DNA from: a virus
Reading direction: 5' to 3' (one strand)
Length of the DNA: 5,284 nucleotides
Virus record (IMG/VR): IMGVR_UViG_3300045988_004808
Coordinates: 1-5,284 of that record
The notes under the pieces: model-generated
What the model saw: only the letters and a program-made list of their open reading frames with translations
Database searches by the model: none
What the model was told of the DNA's origin: nothing
In this document: positions 1-5,284 of the stretch, in pieces
Position numbering within the stretch: position 1 is the stretch's first letter
Layout of the letters: each line of letters begins with the position of its first letter
Translations under genes and position numbers: made by a program

Positions 1-55
1 AATACCATTACGGAGAACAGAACATAAGATTTTACGCTTGCGGCGAGTACGGAAG
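1..55. repeat. Terminal redundancy left copy, identical to 5230-5284; marks the circular junction of a 5229-bp genome
   Basis: A 55-nt exact match with the window end, read directly from the sequence. It lies inside the rep coding frame, so it is an artefact of linearising a circle rather than a biological repeat. Confidence 0.9.
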
Positions 56-629: not shown

Positions 630-680
630 AAAGGGGGCACGCCCCCTTTACCCCCTTGTAAAAGGGGGGTTTTATTTATA
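630..680 (+). terminator. Two tandem GC-rich stem-loops immediately after the rep stop codon, the second followed by a T-rich run (rho-independent terminator-like)
   Basis: In the first, AAAGGGGGC (630-638) pairs with GCCCCCTTT (641-649). In the second, CCCCCTT (651-657) pairs with AAGGGGG (662-668) across a GTAA loop, followed by GTTTTATTTATA. Confidence 0.6.
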
Positions 681-791: not shown

Positions 792-905
792 ATGACGAAC
801 CTTAAAAGCGAAAGAAAAGATAAGCAAGTGTTCAAAGAAACCGCAGCGAAAACCAAGAAAATCAACATCGCACCGAAAGTAATGCGGGGCGGCATCAGAC
901 TGTAA
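792..905 (+). CDS. Small, highly basic protein (37 aa, MTNLKSERKDKQVFKETAAKTKKINIAPKVMRGGIRL). Probably the DNA-binding/packaging protein, analogous to phiX174 J and gokushovirus ORF8.
   Basis: SD GGAGG at 779-783 sits 8 nt before ATG 792. About 11 of 37 residues are K/R, and the size and position match microvirus J/ORF8 proteins. The C-terminal RGGIRL resembles the C-terminus of chlamydiaphage ORF8, recalled from memory and not checked. It is not in the ORF track because it is under 60 aa. Confidence 0.6.
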   Translation: MTNLKSERKDKQVFKETAAKTKKINIAPKVMRGGIRL

Positions 906-926: not shown

Positions 927-1184
927 ATGAAAACCAACATCTACGCATTCAAAGACACCAAAATAGGCTTTATGCAGCCATTCCTCCAGCAGAACGAAGC
1001 AGTAGCCATGCGAACACTCAAAATGGCCGTGAACGATGAACACAGCCAAATCCGAAACATGGCCGAAGATATCCAATTGTACCAGCTCGGAACCTTTGAC
1101 GATGATACCGGGGAAATCGTACCGGAGGTAAAATTTATCGCAAACGCAATCGACCATAAGGAGGTGAATACCAATAGAGATTAA
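927..1184 (+). CDS. Hypothetical protein, 85 aa. Possibly a VP5-like nonstructural protein, but the function is not recognised.
   Basis: SD AAAGGAG at 912-918 sits 8 nt before ATG 927. It is on the coding strand within the gene string. Its 3' end contains the very strong SD AAGGAGGTG (1158-1166) that serves the next ORF. Confidence 0.55.
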   Translation: MKTNIYAFKDTKIGFMQPFLQQNEAVAMRTLKMAVNDEHSQIRNMAEDIQLYQLGTFDDDTGEIVPEVKFIANAIDHKEVNTNRD

Positions 1185-1347
1185 CGAAATCGTAAACATA
1201 ATCGGAACAATCGGCTTTCCTTGCGTAATTGCACTGCTGCTCCTAAAAAACAATCAGGAGCAAATAGACGTAATCAGAGAGAACACAAAGGTAATTCAGG
1301 CACTGGCCGACCGTATCGACAATGTACTTTCAAAAGGGGATGATTAA
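1168..1347 (+). CDS. Holin-like small membrane protein (BhlA/UviB-like architecture). The frame is open from 1168 but has no ATG/GTG/TTG; candidate starts are ATA 1174 and ATT 1180. Translation: ..INEIVNIIGTIGFPCVIALLLLKNNQEQIDVIRENTKVIQALADRIDNVLSKGDD.
   Basis: It has one roughly 20-residue hydrophobic segment followed by a charged C-terminal tail. A perfect SD AAGGAGGTG (1158-1166) lies 9 nt upstream of ATA 1174. The stop TAA 1345-1347 abuts the GTG start of the amidase, a holin-endolysin arrangement. Confidence 0.45.
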   Translation: MPIEINEIVNIIGTIGFPCVIALLLLKNNQEQIDVIRENTKVIQALADRIDNVLSKGDD

Positions 1348-1956
1348 GTGAGACTTCACACACAGACAGCATACAAAAACGCTTGTTACCAAGAAGGGCA
1401 AAAGATGAAACCGAAAGGCATCATGATACATTCGACAGGGGCAAACAATCCGAACCTGAGGCGGTATGTAGGACCAGATGATGGCATACTTGGAAAGAAC
1501 ATCTACAACAACCATTGGAACAACGCCTATCCGGGCGGGAAAGCAATCTGCTGCCATGCATTCATCGGCAAAGACAAAAACGGAGAAGTCCGAACTTATC
1601 AAATTCTGCCGTGGAGCATGGTAGGCTGGCACTGTGGAGGTAAGGCAAACAAAACCCATATTGGAATTGAAATCTGCGAAGACACCACAAGCAACGAACA
1701 CTTCAAAGAAACATTCCGAGAAGCCGTAGAAGTAGCAGCTTATCTATGCAAACTATATCAACTCCAACCGAAAAACATTATCAGCCACAAAGAAGGAAAC
1801 GCAAAAGGCCTAGCAAGTAACCATGGAGATCCGGAACATTGGTGGAAAAATTACGGTATCGACATGAGCGATTTCCGAAACGAAGTAGCAAAAGAACTTG
1901 ACAGGCAAAAAGTATACCATGCAATGATTTATGACACGAAAGGAGCAAACGAATGA
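1348..1956 (+). CDS. N-acetylmuramoyl-L-alanine amidase, amidase_2/PGRP family (PlyG/XlyA/CwlA-like endolysin). Catalytic domain only, 202 aa.
   Basis: Motifs MKPKGIMIHSTGAN, GWHCGG, HIGIEICE and IISHKEG...HGDPEHW line up with YITVHNTAN, GWHAG, SIGIEICEN and VVPHKYWSGKECP of Bacillus XlyA. The N-terminal region resembles PlyG (KYGTKCPYTMKPKYITVHNT); both comparator sequences are recalled from memory. SD AAAGGGGA sits 8 nt before GTG 1348. The stop overlaps the VP3 start as ATGA. Confidence 0.8.
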   Translation: MRLHTQTAYKNACYQEGQKMKPKGIMIHSTGANNPNLRRYVGPDDGILGKNIYNNHWNNAYPGGKAICCHAFIGKDKNGEVRTYQILPWSMVGWHCGGKANKTHIGIEICEDTTSNEHFKETFREAVEVAAYLCKLYQLQPKNIISHKEGNAKGLASNHGDPEHWWKNYGIDMSDFRNEVAKELDRQKVYHAMIYDTKGANE

Positions 1957-2450
1957 ACTTTTATAGCCGACTTAATCCAGCGCCGGTAATCGAAGCGCCG
2001 GCAGGAAGCAAAGAAGCAACAACCTACCAAACACAGATTGACGAGAACGGACACAAAGTAACAGTGCCAATCGGAAAGACAAACATCTATGACCGCATTC
2101 AAAGCAGCCTAGAGGAGACCAAAATTGAGAACATCATCAAACGGTTTACCGAAGGTGATATCTCGGCATTCAGGCAGGGCGAGCCACTGTATGCAGACAT
2201 GACCGAAGCACCACGAACACTGATGGAAGCACAAAACATGATTATCCGCATTACGAATGAATTTAACAATCTGCCGGTAGAGGTAAGGGCTAAATTTGAC
2301 CACAGTCCAGAAAAATACGTTGCACTGTACGGCGGCGAAGAGTGGGCAAAGGCTATAGGCTATGAAACCAAAAAAGCCGACACAGGCGAAATTCAGGGCG
2401 CTGGTGACGTAAGCACCGAACCTATTCCGAAACAGGAGGAGAAAGCATGA
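1953..2450 (+). CDS. VP3: Internal scaffolding protein VP3 (gokushovirus-type), 165 aa
   Basis: SD AGGAG at 1941-1945 sits 7 nt before ATG 1953. The motif MEAQNMIIRITNEFNNLPVEVRAKFDHSPEKYV matches the conserved VP3 scaffold signature (A-Q-x-I-I-R..F..LP..VR..F). It lies directly upstream of VP1 with ATGA start/stop coupling. Confidence 0.78.
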   Translation: MNFYSRLNPAPVIEAPAGSKEATTYQTQIDENGHKVTVPIGKTNIYDRIQSSLEETKIENIIKRFTEGDISAFRQGEPLYADMTEAPRTLMEAQNMIIRITNEFNNLPVEVRAKFDHSPEKYVALYGGEEWAKAIGYETKKADTGEIQGAGDVSTEPIPKQEEKA

Positions 2451-4105
2451 ACAGAAACACCGAAAGCCATTTTTCAGTAAATCCGATTAACCTTGATATC
2501 CAGCGAAGCAAATTTGTAAGACCGAGTACGCATAAGACCACATTCAACGCCGGAAACCTCATTCCGATTTATGTTGATGAAGTACTACCGGGCGATACCT
2601 TCAAGATGAATATGAGCAGCGTCATCCGTATGAGTACGCCTATATATCCTGTAATGGATAACGCCAACATGGATGTATATTTCTTCTTTGTACCTAACCG
2701 ACTTGTGTGGTATCACTGGAAAGAGTTTTTTGGAGAAAACAATACCACGCACTGGGAGCAACCGGTAGAATACGAAGCACCGCAAATCACCGCACCGGCG
2801 GGCGGATGGGCAAAAGGAACTATTGCCGACTATATGGGCATTCCAACGAAAATCGAAAACATCAGCGTACAGGCACTGCCATTCCGAGCATACTGTAAAA
2901 TCTGGAATGACTGGTTCAGAGACCAAAACTTGAAAGACCCTGCCATGATATCCATGGATGAAACGACAACGGCAGGAGCAAACACAGGAGACTATGTAAC
3001 CAATGCAGAGAAAGGAGCACTTCCTCTCAAAGTCGCAAAATACCATGACTATTTCACTGCAGCACTACCTGAACCTCAGAAAGGACCGGAAGTAACTATC
3101 GGCGCAGTAAACGGATATATACCGATTGTTACAAGGAACGAATTGGCAACAAATAGCACGACCAATGCACTAAGATGGAATGTAAACGGAAACACACCGA
3201 GTGCCCTATTAGTAGGCATAGCAACAGGAAAGAACACAGACGGAACGTCTAATACATTCACACCAAACACCGGCGGAAACGCGACATTTACAGGAAACAT
3301 TACACCGGCAAACCTGTGGGCAGAAATGGGTAACAATAGTGCGACCAGCATTAACGCTCTGCGACAGGCATTCGCAATTCAGAGATTGTACGAGAAAAAC
3401 GCACGCGGCGGTACTCGTTATATCGAGATTATCAAAGCACACTTCGGAGTACAGTCACCGGATGCCAGACAGCAGCGAAGCGAATATCTGGGCGGCACTC
3501 GAGTACCTATCAACATGGATCAGGTGGTACAGACCTCCAATTCCGGAGACGGTATCACACCGCAGGGCAACACGGCAGCATACTCTCTGACAGCATTCAA
3601 TGAAAGCATGTTCACCAAATCGTTTACCGAACACGGTTACATCATCGGACTGGCATGTATCAGAACTGAGCACACCTACCAACAGGGAATTGAGCGGTTT
3701 TGGAGCAGAAAGAAGATGCTGGACTACTACTTCCCAACTTTGGCAAACCTCGGAGAGCAAGCAATCCTGAACAAAGAAATCTATGCACAGGGCAACGCAA
3801 CGGACGATGAAGCATTCGGCTATCAGGAAGCATGGGCAGAATATCGGTACAAGCCGAGCAGAGTATCCGGAGCAATGCGAAGCAACTATCAGGCAACATT
3901 GGATGCATGGCACTATGCAGACAAGTACACCAAACAGCCTATCCTGTCGAGTGAATGGATTGACGAAACAAGCGCGAACATCGATAGAACACTTGCCGTT
4001 CAGAGCACAACCGAAGACCAATTTATTGCAGACTTTTATTTTGCATGTGAAGCAACAAGGCCTATGCCTCTGTATAGCATTCCCGGCCTGATTGACCATC
4101 ACTAA
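2447..4105 (+). CDS. VP1: Major capsid protein VP1 (microvirus F-protein fold, gokushovirus-type), 552 aa
   Basis: The N-terminal signature is IQRSKFVRPSTHKTTFNAGNLIPIYVDEVLPGDTF. Further motifs are MSTPIYPVMDN, FFFVPNRLVW, APAGGW, DYMGIPTK and LRQAFAIQRLYE...RYIEIIKAHFGV, which is a classic Microviridae VP1. SD AGGAGGAG lies upstream. Confidence 0.95.
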   Translation: MNRNTESHFSVNPINLDIQRSKFVRPSTHKTTFNAGNLIPIYVDEVLPGDTFKMNMSSVIRMSTPIYPVMDNANMDVYFFFVPNRLVWYHWKEFFGENNTTHWEQPVEYEAPQITAPAGGWAKGTIADYMGIPTKIENISVQALPFRAYCKIWNDWFRDQNLKDPAMISMDETTTAGANTGDYVTNAEKGALPLKVAKYHDYFTAALPEPQKGPEVTIGAVNGYIPIVTRNELATNSTTNALRWNVNGNTPSALLVGIATGKNTDGTSNTFTPNTGGNATFTGNITPANLWAEMGNNSATSINALRQAFAIQRLYEKNARGGTRYIEIIKAHFGVQSPDARQQRSEYLGGTRVPINMDQVVQTSNSGDGITPQGNTAAYSLTAFNESMFTKSFTEHGYIIGLACIRTEHTYQQGIERFWSRKKMLDYYFPTLANLGEQAILNKEIYAQGNATDDEAFGYQEAWAEYRYKPSRVSGAMRSNYQATLDAWHYADKYTKQPILSSEWIDETSANIDRTLAVQSTTEDQFIADFYFACEATRPMPLYSIPGLIDHH

Positions 4106-4119
4106 AGGAGGGGCAAACA

Positions 4120-4731
4120 ATGGCAGGAAGTAGAGGCCGAGGCATATTTGGAAGAGATAAAAATCTCGTTCAAGCAGGACAAAAAGCAGTAGATGCAGCT
4201 ATAAGCGGATTAGGTCTTACACTCAATCCAATTGCTAACACCACAGCAACAGCAGAAGCGGCATTCAACAAAAGCCAAATGAGCGCAGAACAGGCAATGG
4301 CCTTCGAAGCCAGCCAAGCAGCACAACAGATGGCATTCCAACGAGAAATGCTCCAAAATCAAATGCGGTTTAACAGCGCAGAAGCAGAAACCAACAGAGC
4401 ATGGCAAAGGGAAATGAGGCAAACAGCCTACCAAGACACAGTAAAAGACATGGTAAAAGCCGGAATAAATCCAATACTGGCAGCACAGTTAGGAGCAACC
4501 GGCCTATCAGGTGGAAGCACTGCAAGCGCAGGACTTGCAAGCGGAGCAATGGCCAGCGGCCACACAGCACAAATGCAACAGCAAACCGTACCGGATATCA
4601 TCCGAAACATCGGATATGCCATCACAACGGCAAAAGAAGCGGCAAAAGGACTGGAGGGATACACGAAAGAACTGGCCAATGAAAAACTCGACCGCTACGC
4701 AAAACAGGCAATCGGAAGTGTAAAAGGCTAA
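4120..4731 (+). CDS. VP2: Minor capsid / DNA pilot protein VP2, 203 aa
   Basis: SD AAAGGAGGGG sits 6-7 nt before ATG 4120. The protein is Gly/Ala/Gln-rich with the conserved gokushovirus VP2 core FNSAEAETNRAWQREMRQTAYQDTVKDMVKAGINPILAAQ. It lies immediately downstream of VP1. Confidence 0.82.
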   Translation: MAGSRGRGIFGRDKNLVQAGQKAVDAAISGLGLTLNPIANTTATAEAAFNKSQMSAEQAMAFEASQAAQQMAFQREMLQNQMRFNSAEAETNRAWQREMRQTAYQDTVKDMVKAGINPILAAQLGATGLSGGSTASAGLASGAMASGHTAQMQQQTVPDIIRNIGYAITTAKEAAKGLEGYTKELANEKLDRYAKQAIGSVKG

Positions 4732-4738
4732 ATTTTGT

Positions 4739-4800
4739 GTCAGTCAGCCCCATTGTAACAAGGTGACAATGGGGCTGACTGACCGGCCGCACAGCGGCCG
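4739..4800 (+). promoter_or_regulatory. A perfect 17-bp inverted repeat (GTCAGTCAGCCCCATTG 4739-4755 pairing with CAATGGGGCTGACTGAC 4767-4783, 11-nt loop) is followed by a 7-bp GC hairpin (CGGCCGC 4784-4790, GCGGCCG 4794-4800). There is no U-tract.
   Basis: Read directly from the sequence. Both hairpins sit between the VP2 stop and the rep SD. They are candidates for a complementary-strand priming site on the ssDNA, or a regulatory structure for rep. Confidence 0.55.
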
Positions 4801-4820: not shown

Positions 4821-5284
4821 TTGCCATGTTATCATCCTTTGCGGCGATGGTGGTGGGGTGAGACCGACCAAGACGGAAAGCAAATCAACGCCAAAATCAC
4901 AAGCTGGGAAGTTGATACTCTATTCGAAAGGCCGATAGGCTTTGGAAAAATCCGGGGGCAATGGTCATCGGAAGAATGGAGCGAGGAAATACCATGCGGC
5001 AAATGCATAGGATGCCGACTTGAGTATAGTAGACAATGGGCGAACCGCTGTATGCTGGAAGCACAAGAATGGCCGGAAAACTGGTTTATCACTCTGACAT
5101 ACGATGATGCACATTTACCATTCAAAGAACGCATCGACACCAAGACCGGCGAAATGATGGAAGAATTCACACCGTCATTATATCCGCCGGACATTACAAA
5201 GTTTATGAAAGACCTCCGGCGGTACTGGAAATACCATTACGGAGAACAGAACATAAGATTTTACGCTTGCGGCGAGTACGGAAG
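4821..5284 (+). CDS. VP4: Replication initiation protein (Rep/VP4), N-terminal part. It starts at TTG 4821 (MPCYHPLRRWWWGETDQ...) and continues through the window end and across the circular junction into 3..623.
   Basis: SD GGAAAGGAGGTG at 4803-4814 sits 8 nt before TTG 4821. The N-terminus MPCYHPL is the canonical Microviridae Rep start. FITLTYDD is HUH motif 1. The frame runs open to 5284 and matches the frame at window positions 3-623 after subtracting 5229. Confidence 0.85.
   Translation, partial: MPCYHPLRRWWWGETDQDGKQINAKITSWEVDTLFERPIGFGKIRGQWSSEEWSEEIPCGKCIGCRLEYSRQWANRCMLEAQEWPENWFITLTYDDAHLPFKERIDTKTGEMMEEFTPSLYPPDITKFMKDLRRYWKYHYGEQNIRFYACGEYG
5230..5284. repeat. Terminal redundancy right copy, identical to 1-55
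   Basis: A 55-nt exact match with the window start. Confidence 0.9.

What the first reader, a model, noticed from the sequence alone, without database searches (positions are those of the whole stretch)
1158..1200. Holin-like ORF has no canonical start codon despite a perfect Shine-Dalgarno site
The frame encoding the TM protein is closed by TGA at 1165-1167 and contains no ATG/GTG/TTG before the TM segment. A 9-nt perfect anti-SD match AAGGAGGTG (1158-1166) sits inside the 3' end of the upstream 85-aa gene. ATA (1174) lies at an ideal 9-nt spacing, and ATT (1180) and ATC (1189) follow. Three explanations are possible. One is a rare non-AUG (AUA/AUU) initiation that throttles holin dosage. 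Another is a +1 frameshift at the end of the 85-aa ORF making a fusion. The last is a 1-nt assembly error. A strong SD just upstream of a stop codon is also the configuration that stimulates +1 frameshifting in prfB, though the local codons here are not obviously slippery.
Basis: seen in the sequence. Interest (0 to 1): 0.7.

Follow-up and report, generated by a model that had tools for sequence, protein, structure and literature searches.

The report
Conserved AUA start on microvirus holin
A small holin-like lysis gene in this gut microvirus starts at AUA, a weak start codon, behind an unusually long ribosome-binding site; at least 14 related genomes share this, so it is a real and probably expression-lowering feature, not a sequencing error.

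Summary
The window is a circular 5,229-nt gokushovirus-like microvirus. Between VP5 and an Amidase_2 endolysin lies a 57-codon ORF (1174-1347) encoding one transmembrane helix. It has no in-frame ATG, GTG or TTG. An in-frame TGA sits 9 nt upstream, and AAGGAGGTGA (1158-1167) sits at normal spacing.

Fifty-one of the 52 homologues found are 56-57 aa and begin MEINE/MDINE/MNINE. Their Met aligns exactly with ATA 1174.

At the DNA level, 14 distinct genomes from independent human and pig samples carry ATA at this codon. All keep the ORF intact. Their dN/dS is 0.08 at dS 0.75, the same as in relatives that carry ATG. This excludes an assembly error and a pseudogene.

A +1 frameshift from VP5 is not supported:
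- there is no slippery site;
- the spacer sequence varies;
- AGA is the commonest Arg codon here;
- the SD spacing is wrong for +1 shifting;
- sister genomes initiate independently at ATG.

The best reading is SD-directed initiation at AUA 1174 that attenuates holin synthesis. This matches the "extended SD plus AUA/AUU" starts shown experimentally in Staphylococcus and Bacillus. The amidase's relatives point to a Clostridia host. It is a new member of a known kind. The gene is unannotated in the seven ATA-type GenBank records inspected.

The parts
1158..1167 (+). Extended Shine-Dalgarno sequence AAGGAGGTGA, 10 nt complementary to the 16S 3' tail, embedded in VP5 codons K-E-V-N
   Evidence: 3 copies of the 9-mer against 0.01 expected; predicted duplex dG -17.0 kcal/mol, against -8 on average in ATG-type microvirus relatives.
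1165..1167 (+). In-frame TGA that closes the holin frame 9 nt upstream of the start. It limits any initiation or frameshift to 1168 onwards.
   Evidence: A stop at this position (TGA, or TAA in L026) was checked and found in the 11 ATA-type loci. The three ATA sequences added carry the same GGTGA at this position.
1174..1176 (+). ATA, the proposed AUA initiation codon. It is homologous to the ATG (or GTG) start of relatives.
   Evidence: homologues begin M-E-I-N-E aligned to I-E-I-N-E; 14 distinct genomes have ATA here. Nine microvirus loci (eight distinct sequences) have ATG; among the phi29-like contigs 18 have ATG and 2 have GTG.
1174..1347 (+). Holin-like gene: 57 codons plus TAA. The product is (f)MEINEIVNIIGTIGFPCVIALLLLKNNQEQIDVIRENTKVIQALADRIDNVLSKGDD.
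   Evidence: PHROG 4898 holin, E 8e-6; dN/dS 0.083 among ATA genomes; variable sites by codon position 11/6/43; intact with the same length in the 11 ATA loci examined there, and for the three added later.
1189..1245 (+). Single predicted transmembrane segment, residues 6-24 (IVNIIGTIGFPCVIALLLL)
   Evidence: Kyte-Doolittle 17-residue mean up to 2.29. The flanks are charged (N-terminus -2; C-terminal part 5 basic and 7 acidic residues).
927..1184 (+). VP5 (Phage_ORF5) gene. Its last 11 nt overlap the holin start in another frame. A1176 is both the third base of ATA and the first base of VP5 codon AGA.
   Evidence: PF20577, E 2.4e-22. VP5 ends ...NRD in ATA-type genomes and ...NG[ND] in ATG-type genomes.
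1333..1340 (+). SD-like AAAGGGGA for the amidase, encoded by the holin C-terminal K-G-D codons
   Evidence: dG -12.1. Relatives have AAAGGAGA at the same place.
1348..1956 (+). Amidase_2 endolysin gene. Its GTG start directly abuts the holin TAA.
   Evidence: PF01510, E 8e-18. PHROG 15001 endolysin, E 4e-54; the start is ATG, GTG or TTG in relatives.

Best explanation
The 57-codon holin-like gene is translated by ordinary SD-directed initiation with initiator tRNA at the near-cognate codon AUA 1174. The ribosome is positioned by a 10-nt extended Shine-Dalgarno sequence (1158-1167) that lies inside the end of VP5.

In an ancestor the start was ATG, as it still is in sister microviruses and in phi29-like phages carrying the same gene. 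A G-to-A transition produced ATA. That allele has since been retained in many diverged genomes.

AUA pairs imperfectly with the initiator anticodon and is discriminated against by IF3. The expected consequence is a several-fold to roughly ten-fold lower rate of holin synthesis, partly buffered by the long SD. In a microvirus, which is not known to have temporal transcriptional control, this would set the holin accumulation rate and hence lysis timing.

Shown here:
- homology of ATA to ATG;
- recurrence of the ATA allele in independent genomes;
- an intact ORF under purifying selection;
- SD strength and spacing.

Inferred, not shown:
- that AUA is the codon actually used;
- that the protein is a functional holin;
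- that reduced dosage is the selected effect.
For: - 51 of 52 homologues are 56-57 aa and start M[EDN]INE, aligned with window I-E-I-N-E from 1174.
- 14 distinct ATA-type sequences carry the haplotype GGAGGT(G/A)A-N6-ATAGAGATTAAC: window, L002, L003/KT264796, L004, L013, L026-L031, L116, L117-119 and L121-123. They come from human and pig faeces, IMG/VR, ENA and Logan.
- The ORF is intact with an identical stop position in all of them.
- dN/dS is 0.083 at dS 0.75 in the ATA set and 0.078 in the ATG set. The pre-TM codons 5-10 give dN/dS 0.05.
- The GGAGG-to-start spacing is 9 nt, the same as in ATG relatives, and it is 8 nt at the two other AAGGAGGTG copies in the window. ATT 1180 would be 15 nt away.
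- SD duplex dG is -16.3 on average in ATA genomes and -8.05 in ATG microviruses.
- The start region is unstructured (z 0.48).
- There is precedent in Firmicutes. Conserved AUA (infC, ccpN, citZ) and AUU (cvfC1) starts all have extended SDs and give about 10-30% of AUG expression (PMC13009471). In E. coli AUA gives 1-2% of AUG (bioRxiv 10.1101/063800).
- The amidase's relatives are all in Clostridia (Oscillospiraceae, Acutalibacteraceae, Lachnospiraceae) or their phages. This points to a host with Firmicutes-type initiation.
Against: - There is no direct evidence of the N-terminus: no proteomics, ribosome profiling or reporter data.
- The 11 nt around the ATA overlap VP5, so invariance of ATA itself cannot be attributed cleanly to the holin frame.
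- The SD/start-codon covariation is not absolute. L115 has ATG behind the full AAGGAGGTGA.
- That covariation is also not phylogenetically independent. The gene trees are incongruent and poorly supported, so the number of ATG-to-ATA events is unknown.
- Three distinct ATA sequences have ATG or GTG at codon 7 (L026, L116, L121-123). That could give a 51-aa product, although no SD precedes it.
- The host is uncultured and inferred only from the amidase's relatives.
Confidence: 0.75

Rival explanations
1. Initiation still uses AUA 1174, or the adjacent AUU 1180, but mainly through termination-reinitiation coupling. Ribosomes that finish VP5 at UAA 1182-1184 are held by the strong SD 16-25 nt upstream and restart a few nucleotides back. 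Holin output would then be a fixed small fraction of VP5 translation, as MS2 lysis-gene expression depends on coat-gene termination.
For: The VP5 stop lies 6 nt downstream of ATA, and ATT 1180 overlaps it (ATTAA). The 11-nt overlap architecture is conserved in every microvirus locus, whether ATA or ATG. The SD sits within the translated VP5 3' end.
Against: The SD and its spacing are those of a normal independent start, identical to the two other AAGGAGGTG sites in the window that precede non-overlapping genes. The phi29-like phages express the same gene from an ordinary SD plus ATG. Nothing in the sequence demands coupling.
Confidence: 0.2
2. The real start is a downstream near-cognate or canonical codon: ATT 1180, ATC 1189, or ATG/GTG at codon 7 in some genomes. 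ATA 1174 would then be only an untranslated or Ile codon.
For: ATT and ATC are present and conserved. Codon 7 is ATG in L026 and GTG in L116 and L121-123. A gene caller chose codon 7 in L026 (P0044).
Against: ATT is 15 nt and ATC 24 nt from the GGAGG core, well beyond the 7-9 nt used by every other gene here. Codons 5-10 are under strong purifying selection in ATA genomes (dN/dS 0.05). Eleven of 14 ATA sequences have no canonical codon before the TM helix. The homologous start in all relatives is the codon at 1174.
Confidence: 0.08
3. A programmed +1 frameshift near the end of VP5 makes a VP5-holin fusion, with the strong SD acting as a stimulator in the manner of prfB.
For: The holin frame is +1 relative to VP5. 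A strong SD precedes a stop codon.
Against: The shift would have to occur within 1168-1181. None of AAU, ACC, AAU, AGA or GAU allows tRNA re-pairing in the +1 frame (inference from codon-anticodon rules). The spacer sequence varies among ATA genomes. AGA is the most used Arg codon (18 of 56), so it is not a hungry codon. The SD ends 12 nt or more before the last sense codon, whereas prfB-type stimulation needs about 3 nt. Sister genomes with the same overlap carry an ATG.
Confidence: 0.03
4. It is an assembly or sequencing error, or the gene is a decaying pseudogene that lost its start codon.
For: The window alone shows a frame with no canonical start. Automated annotation in the seven ATA-type GenBank records inspected does not call the ORF.
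Against: The same ATA occurs in 14 distinct sequences from unrelated studies. The ORF is never interrupted. dN/dS is 0.083 over dS 0.75, equal to that of ATG-type genes, and variation is dominated by third positions (11/6/43).
Confidence: 0.01
5. The G-to-A change was selected, or drifted, for its effect on VP5 (Gly to Arg, three residues from the C-terminus). Its effect on the holin start is then a tolerated by-product, not an adaptation.
For: A1176 is the first base of VP5 codon AGA. VP5 ends NRD in all ATA genomes and NG[ND] in ATG genomes.
Against: The VP5 tail varies in sequence and length across the family (KEMKGDG, KEEKASGN, KEVNTNRD), which suggests weak constraint. The ATA allele is coupled with a strengthened SD in 12 of 14 sequences, and the SD matters only for the holin.
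Confidence: 0.1

Closest known systems
Conserved non-canonical AUA/AUU start codons with extended Shine-Dalgarno motifs in Firmicutes (S. aureus/B. subtilis ccpN AUA, S. aureus infC AUA, citZ AUA, cvfC1 AUU; PMC13009471)
   Same: A near-cognate AUA sits at the position of a normal start. It is preceded by an unusually long SD at proper spacing and is conserved among relatives. The expected effect is attenuation to roughly 10-30% of AUG.
   Different: Those are chromosomal regulatory and metabolic genes validated by Ribo-Ret and luciferase reporters. This one is a phage lysis gene in an uncultured ssDNA microvirus, with no experimental data. Here the SD and the first four codons are overprinted on the upstream gene.
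E. coli infC AUU start, autoregulated through IF3 discrimination (own knowledge; referred to in PMC13009471)
   Same: A weak AUN start makes expression sensitive to IF3 proofreading.
   Different: There is no reason to expect autoregulation here. Any dependence on host IF3 level is speculative.
Translationally throttled phage lysis genes: phiX174 E, MS2 L (coupled to coat termination), lambda S dual start (own knowledge)
   Same: [quoted passage not shown] The gene overlaps an upstream gene.
   Different: The mechanism differs: a weak start codon plus a strong SD, not a weak RBS, reinitiation or an antiholin isoform. This phage pairs a holin-like protein with an amidase endolysin, unlike the single-gene lysis known from phiX174 and MS2.
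PHROG 4898 holins / Pfam YvrJ (PF12841) small single-TM proteins
   Same: About 57 aa with one N-proximal TM helix containing a G-F-P motif and a charged helical C-terminus. PHROG 4898 matches at E 8e-6. NCBI names an ATG-type homologue 'YvrJ protein family protein'.
   Different: The Pfam YvrJ score of the window protein is 11.9 bits against a gathering cut-off of 29.5. Only 12 of 53 family members reach E<0.01. Hole-forming activity is untested.
prfB-type SD-stimulated +1 frameshifting
   Same: A strong SD lies upstream of a stop codon, with the downstream frame at +1.
   Different: There is no slippery codon, the SD-to-site spacing is wrong, there is no conserved shift site, and an independent ATG is present in sister genomes.

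Membership tests
Non-canonical AUA start with extended SD (Firmicutes type) | A near-cognate AUN codon at the position homologous to the AUG/GUG start of orthologues | tested here: met
   ATA 1174 aligns with ATG in nine microvirus loci (eight distinct sequences), and with ATG in 18 and GTG in 2 phi29-like phage loci.
Non-canonical AUA start with extended SD (Firmicutes type) | An extended SD (about 8 nt or more of anti-SD complementarity) at canonical spacing | tested here: met
   AAGGAGGTGA is 10 nt, dG -17.0, with the GGAGG core 9 nt from ATA.
Non-canonical AUA start with extended SD (Firmicutes type) | The non-canonical codon is conserved among related genomes while the ORF stays under purifying selection | tested here: met
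   There are 14 distinct ATA genomes, with dN/dS 0.083 at dS 0.75.
Non-canonical AUA start with extended SD (Firmicutes type) | Direct demonstration of initiation at that codon (initiation profiling, toeprint, N-terminal MS or reporter) | not testable with these tools
   No expression data exist for this uncultured phage.
Holin (PHROG 4898 / YvrJ-like) | A small protein with at least one TM helix and a charged C-terminus | tested here: met
   It is 57 aa, with a hydrophobic segment at residues 6-24 and 5 basic and 7 acidic residues in 25-57.
Holin (PHROG 4898 / YvrJ-like) | A gene adjacent to and co-oriented with an endolysin gene | tested here: met
   The TAA at 1345-1347 abuts the GTG at 1348 of the Amidase_2 endolysin.
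Holin (PHROG 4898 / YvrJ-like) | A significant profile match | tested here: inconclusive
   PHROG 4898 matches at E 8e-6. Pfam YvrJ scores 11.9 bits against a 29.5 cut-off, and 12 of 53 members reach E<0.01.
Holin (PHROG 4898 / YvrJ-like) | Membrane-hole formation that releases the endolysin | not testable with these tools
   This needs expression and lysis assays.
prfB-like programmed +1 frameshift | A slippery P-site codon that can re-pair in the +1 frame next to a stop or hungry codon | tested here: not met
   the codons are AAT ACC AAT AGA GAT TAA, and none re-pairs at +1. AGA is the commonest Arg codon.
prfB-like programmed +1 frameshift | An SD about 3 nt upstream of the shift codon, and a shift site conserved in relatives that lack an independent start | tested here: not met
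   The SD ends at 1167 and the last sense codon is at 1179-1181. The spacer varies, and sister genomes have ATG.
Gokushovirinae-like Microviridae | A circular genome of about 4.5-6 kb encoding VP1 (Phage_F), a VP4 replication initiator, a VP3 scaffold and VP5 | tested here: met
   a 55-nt terminal repeat gives a 5,229-nt circle. PF02305 at E 7e-177, PF23343, PF09675 and PF20577; 86-90% nt identity to Gokushovirus WZ-2015a and to pig-faeces Microviridae.

The most novel reading that the evidence does not exclude
The AUA start is an adaptive lysis timer. Initiation at AUA is policed by IF3 and, in S. aureus, varies with growth medium (10% to 30% of AUG for ccpN). Holin accumulation, and therefore lysis time, would then be tied to the host's translational or physiological state, or to VP5 translation through reinitiation. 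That would give a 5-kb phage with no transcriptional regulators a host-sensing lysis clock. The natural ATG/ATA polymorphism among near-identical genomes, including L115 with ATG behind the same SD, would be a ready-made allelic series.
Probability: 0.2. Interest if true: 0.6.

Novelty: new member of a known kind. Interest (0 to 1): 0.4.

Why it matters
- It reveals a real, selected gene that standard gene callers and the inspected ATA-type GenBank records miss. Without it these microviruses appear to carry an endolysin with no holin.
- It shows that a group of gut gokushovirus-like phages, probably infecting Clostridia, uses a holin-like gene plus an amidase. The well-studied microviruses use single-gene lysis.
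- It adds a phage lysis gene to the short list of conserved AUA starts paired with extended SDs, and natural ATG sister alleles are available for comparison.
- It is a practical warning that AUA/AUU starts should be considered when annotating small phage genomes from Firmicutes-type hosts.

Tried and rejected
- Scans of IMG/VR for the 18-nt junction motifs (ATA and ATG versions) returned almost only chance matches. Only the two contigs already found are relevant, so no frequency estimate came from there.
- A scan of GTDB representative genomes for the holin found nothing. No prophage or host assignment came from the holin itself.
- I tried to decide whether ATA arose once. NJ trees of the holin, VP5 and the amidase disagree. 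Bootstrap support for ATA monophyly is 0-11%, and 58% for ATA+L115 on VP5+holin. Recombination or short alignments prevent a conclusion. One bootstrap script timed out.
- Recoding of TGA was considered. The frame upstream of TGA 1165 is closed by TAA 1129-1131 and has no start codon in between. L026 has TAA in place of TGA.
- AUA reassigned to Met was considered. ATA is used 14 times as an ordinary codon, and it alternates with ATC at conserved Ile positions.
- ATA 1168 as the start was considered. It is too close to the SD and is not conserved; it is ACA in many genomes.
- RNA structure controlling the start was considered. No significant fold was found (z 0.48).
- L155, a 'Prevotella' MAG contig with a 92% amidase match, is a chimeric contig end carrying only a holin C-terminal fragment. 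It was discarded.

Full report
**What the window is.** The first 55 nt repeat at the end, so the window is a circular genome of 5,229 nt. It encodes:
- VP4, a replication initiator of 343 aa. It starts at TTG 4821 and runs across the junction (PF23343).
- A conserved 37-aa ORF (792-905).
- VP5 (927-1184; PF20577).
- An Amidase_2 protein (1348-1956; PF01510; endolysin PHROGs).
- The VP3 scaffold (1953-2450).
- VP1 (2447-4105; Phage_F, E 7e-177).
- A 203-aa VP2-position protein (4120-4731).

Region 900-2000 is 86-90% identical at the nucleotide level to Gokushovirus WZ-2015a from human faeces and to several Microviridae from pig faeces.

**Checking the observation.** In the frame of interest, TGA lies at 1165-1167. 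The frame then reads ATA CCA ATA GAG ATT AAC GAA ATC and continues to TAA 1345-1347. It contains no in-frame ATG, GTG or TTG. This is why the ORF lister does not report it.

AAGGAGGTG lies at 1158-1166, and the match to the anti-SD extends to 10 nt (AAGGAGGTGA). The 9-mer occurs three times in the window against 0.01 expected. The other two copies lie 6 nt before the ATG of the 37-aa ORF and the TTG of VP4. This copy lies 7 nt before ATA 1174.

**What the ORF encodes.** From 1174 the product is 57 aa. It has one hydrophobic segment (residues 6-24), an acidic N-terminus and a charged C-terminal helix. It hits PHROG 4898 'holin' at E 8e-6. It hits Pfam YvrJ only below threshold (11.9 bits against 29.5). 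Its stop codon abuts the start of the amidase gene. The anatomy is that of a holin-endolysin cassette. Hole formation is inferred, not shown.

**Homologues fix the start position.** A protein search returned 52 homologues. Fifty-one are 56-57 aa and begin MEINE, MDINE or MNINE. Their Met aligns with the window's ATA 1174. The exception is P0044 (51 aa). It comes from a contig (L026) in which the gene caller chose an ATG at codon 7, because the canonical position is ATA.

**The ATA is a recurrent allele, not an error.** I located the gene by tblastn with an internal peptide, a method blind to the start codon, in loci from four source types: GenBank phage records, IMG/VR, ENA and JGI metagenomes, and Logan assemblies. 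Fourteen distinct sequences have ATA at the homologous codon: window, L002, L003 (KT264796), L004, L013, L026, L027, L028, L029, L030, L031, L116, L117 (=L118, L119) and L121 (=L122, L123).

Nine microvirus loci have ATG (L001, L005, L032-L037, L115); L035 and L036 are identical, so eight are distinct. Twenty contigs of about 15 kb have ATG (18) or GTG (2). Those contigs are phi29-like podoviruses: the holin homologue lies between a Gp16 encapsidation ATPase (PF05894, E 5e-74) and a phi29-type scaffolding protein.

The VP5 C-terminus predicts the allele...NRD for ATA and ...NG[ND] for ATG. VP5 proteins chosen for an NRD ending led to further ATA genomes.

**The gene is functional in ATA genomes.** All ATA sequences keep a 57-codon ORF with the same stop. 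An in-frame stop 9 nt upstream was confirmed in the 11 loci, and the three later sequences show the same GGTGA. Among the 11 ATA sequences available, codons 5-57 (outside the VP5 overlap) give dS 0.75, dN 0.063 and dN/dS 0.083. ATG-type microviruses give 0.078. Variable sites fall 11/6/43 by codon position. The six codons before the TM helix have dN/dS 0.05. A pseudogene or a non-coding spacer is therefore excluded. Translation must begin at or very near 1174.

**Which codon, and how.** The GGAGG core is 9 nt from ATA 1174. That is the same spacing as in ATG relatives, and other genes of this genome use 7-9 nt. ATT 1180 would be 15 nt away and ATC 1189 would be 24 nt away. The region is not structured.

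ATA genomes have markedly stronger SDs. Twelve of the 14 have AAGGAGGTGA, and the mean duplex dG over the 11 measured is -16.3 kcal/mol. The eight ATG microvirus loci measured have a mean of -8.05, and the two sets separate completely.

This association has two limits. L115 combines ATG with the full SD and the same GAG second codon. Also, the ATA sequences are not independent samples. NJ trees of the holin, VP5 and the amidase disagree and are weakly supported, which suggests recombination, so I cannot say how many times ATA arose or reverted. Among ATA carriers the amidase gene is as little as 73% identical in nucleotides. The allele therefore persists across substantial divergence or spreads between backgrounds. 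Reversion needs only one transition, and the sister genomes show that VP5 tolerates it.

**Rivals.** A +1 frameshift from VP5 would have to occur within 1168-1181. The evidence is against it:
- none of AAU, ACC, AAU, AGA or GAU can re-pair at +1;
- the spacer differs among ATA genomes;
- AGA is the most frequent Arg codon;
- the SD ends 12 nt or more before the last sense codon, not about 3 nt as in prfB;
- sister genomes with the same 11-nt overlap simply have ATG.

TGA recoding does not help, because the frame is closed again at 1129-1131 with no start codon in between. AUA is an ordinary Ile codon elsewhere in the genome. Reinitiation by ribosomes terminating VP5 six nucleotides downstream may contribute and cannot be separated from direct initiation by sequence alone. 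Selection on the overlapping VP5 codon (Gly to Arg) is possible but unlikely to be the driver, given the variable VP5 tail.

**Comparison with what is known.** A 2026 study mapped initiation sites in S. aureus. It found conserved non-canonical starts (infC AUA, ccpN AUA shared with B. subtilis, citZ AUA, cvfC1 AUU). All have extended SDs, and reporters gave about 10% of AUG activity, rising to 30% for ccpN in rich medium (PMC13009471). In E. coli, AUA initiates at about 1-2% of AUG (bioRxiv 10.1101/063800).

The configuration here is the same. The likely host is a member of the Clostridia. The amidase's relatives (35-55% aa identity) are all in Oscillospiraceae, Acutalibacteraceae, Lachnospiraceae and related MAGs. 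Parts of the gene are 67-71% identical in nucleotides to endolysin genes of Evtepia and Oscillospiraceae phages.

Lysis-associated peptidase and amidase genes in microviruses, and the first Gram-positive-associated microviruses, have been reported (PMC9239249). A full-text search for 'holin' together with 'non-canonical start codon' returned no paper. The holin ORF is not annotated in the seven ATA-type GenBank records inspected.

**Verdict.** The best explanation is SD-directed initiation at a conserved AUA that lowers holin output (confidence about 0.75 for the start codon, lower for the adaptive 'throttle' reading). It is a new member of a known kind of translational attenuation, found in an unusual place. 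It has a practical annotation consequence and offers a natural ATG/ATA allelic series for experiments. Interest is moderate.

Noticed in passing
window 1-55 and 5230-5284; VP4 4821-5284 joined to 56-623: A 55-nt terminal direct repeat shows that the window is a circular 5,229-nt genome. The VP4 replication gene spans the junction. It starts with TTG behind the strongest SD in the genome (dG -22.3), so weak start codons paired with long SDs occur twice in this phage.
   Followed up: partly
window 1174-1956; L124-L154; hits H10-H20: A gokushovirus-like ssDNA phage carries a holin-plus-Amidase_2 cassette. The amidase's relatives are all in Clostridia MAGs (Oscillospiraceae, Acutalibacteraceae, Lachnospiraceae). 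Parts are 67-71% nt-identical to endolysins of Evtepia and Oscillospiraceae dsDNA phages. This suggests horizontal acquisition and a Gram-positive-type host.
   Followed up: partly
L006-L025 (about 15-kb contigs), holin at about 1501-1674 of each locus: The same 57-aa holin-like gene (54-73% aa identity) sits in phi29-like podoviruses between the Gp16 encapsidation ATPase (PF05894) and a phi29-type scaffolding protein. No adjacent amidase is present there. Two of these use GTG as the start.
   Followed up: partly
window 1345-1350 and the equivalent positions in L001-L037: The amidase start codon directly abuts the holin stop (TAA|NTG). It varies among ATG, GTG and TTG in close relatives. Its SD is encoded by the conserved holin C-terminal K-G-D codons. 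This suggests translational coupling, so an AUA-limited holin might also limit the endolysin.
   Followed up: no
L004 740-916 (MG945410) and L028 (MG945347); L003 about 570-750 (KT264796); L033 2581-2757: There are small accessory insertions in relatives. L004 has an unannotated 59-codon ORF with no Pfam hit between the holin and the amidase, and L028 begins the same way. KT264796 has an apparent partial duplication of VP5 upstream of the holin. L033 has an extra 58-aa ORF before VP5.
   Followed up: partly
window 630-668 and 4739-4794: G+C-rich hairpins lie in the two intergenic regions. AAAGGGGGC/GCCCCCTTT (630-649) has a second complementary AAAGGGGG at 661-668, after VP4. A 21-nt-arm hairpin (4739-4783) followed by a CGGCCG palindrome lies between VP2 and VP4. 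These are candidate terminators or replication-origin structures.
   Followed up: no
window 792-905: A conserved, very basic 37-aa ORF (PHROG 10695, E 1.6e-8) lies behind another perfect AAGGAGGTG. It is called in nearly all of the related contigs whose gene lists cover that region. Its function is unknown.
   Followed up: no
L155 (JALFNY010000168.1, 'Prevotella sp.' MAG): The end of a 17.9-kb contig carries a fragment of this holin C-terminus plus the amidase N-terminus (92% aa) joined to unrelated sequence. It is most likely an assembly or binning chimera and should not be read as a Prevotella host signal.
   Followed up: partly
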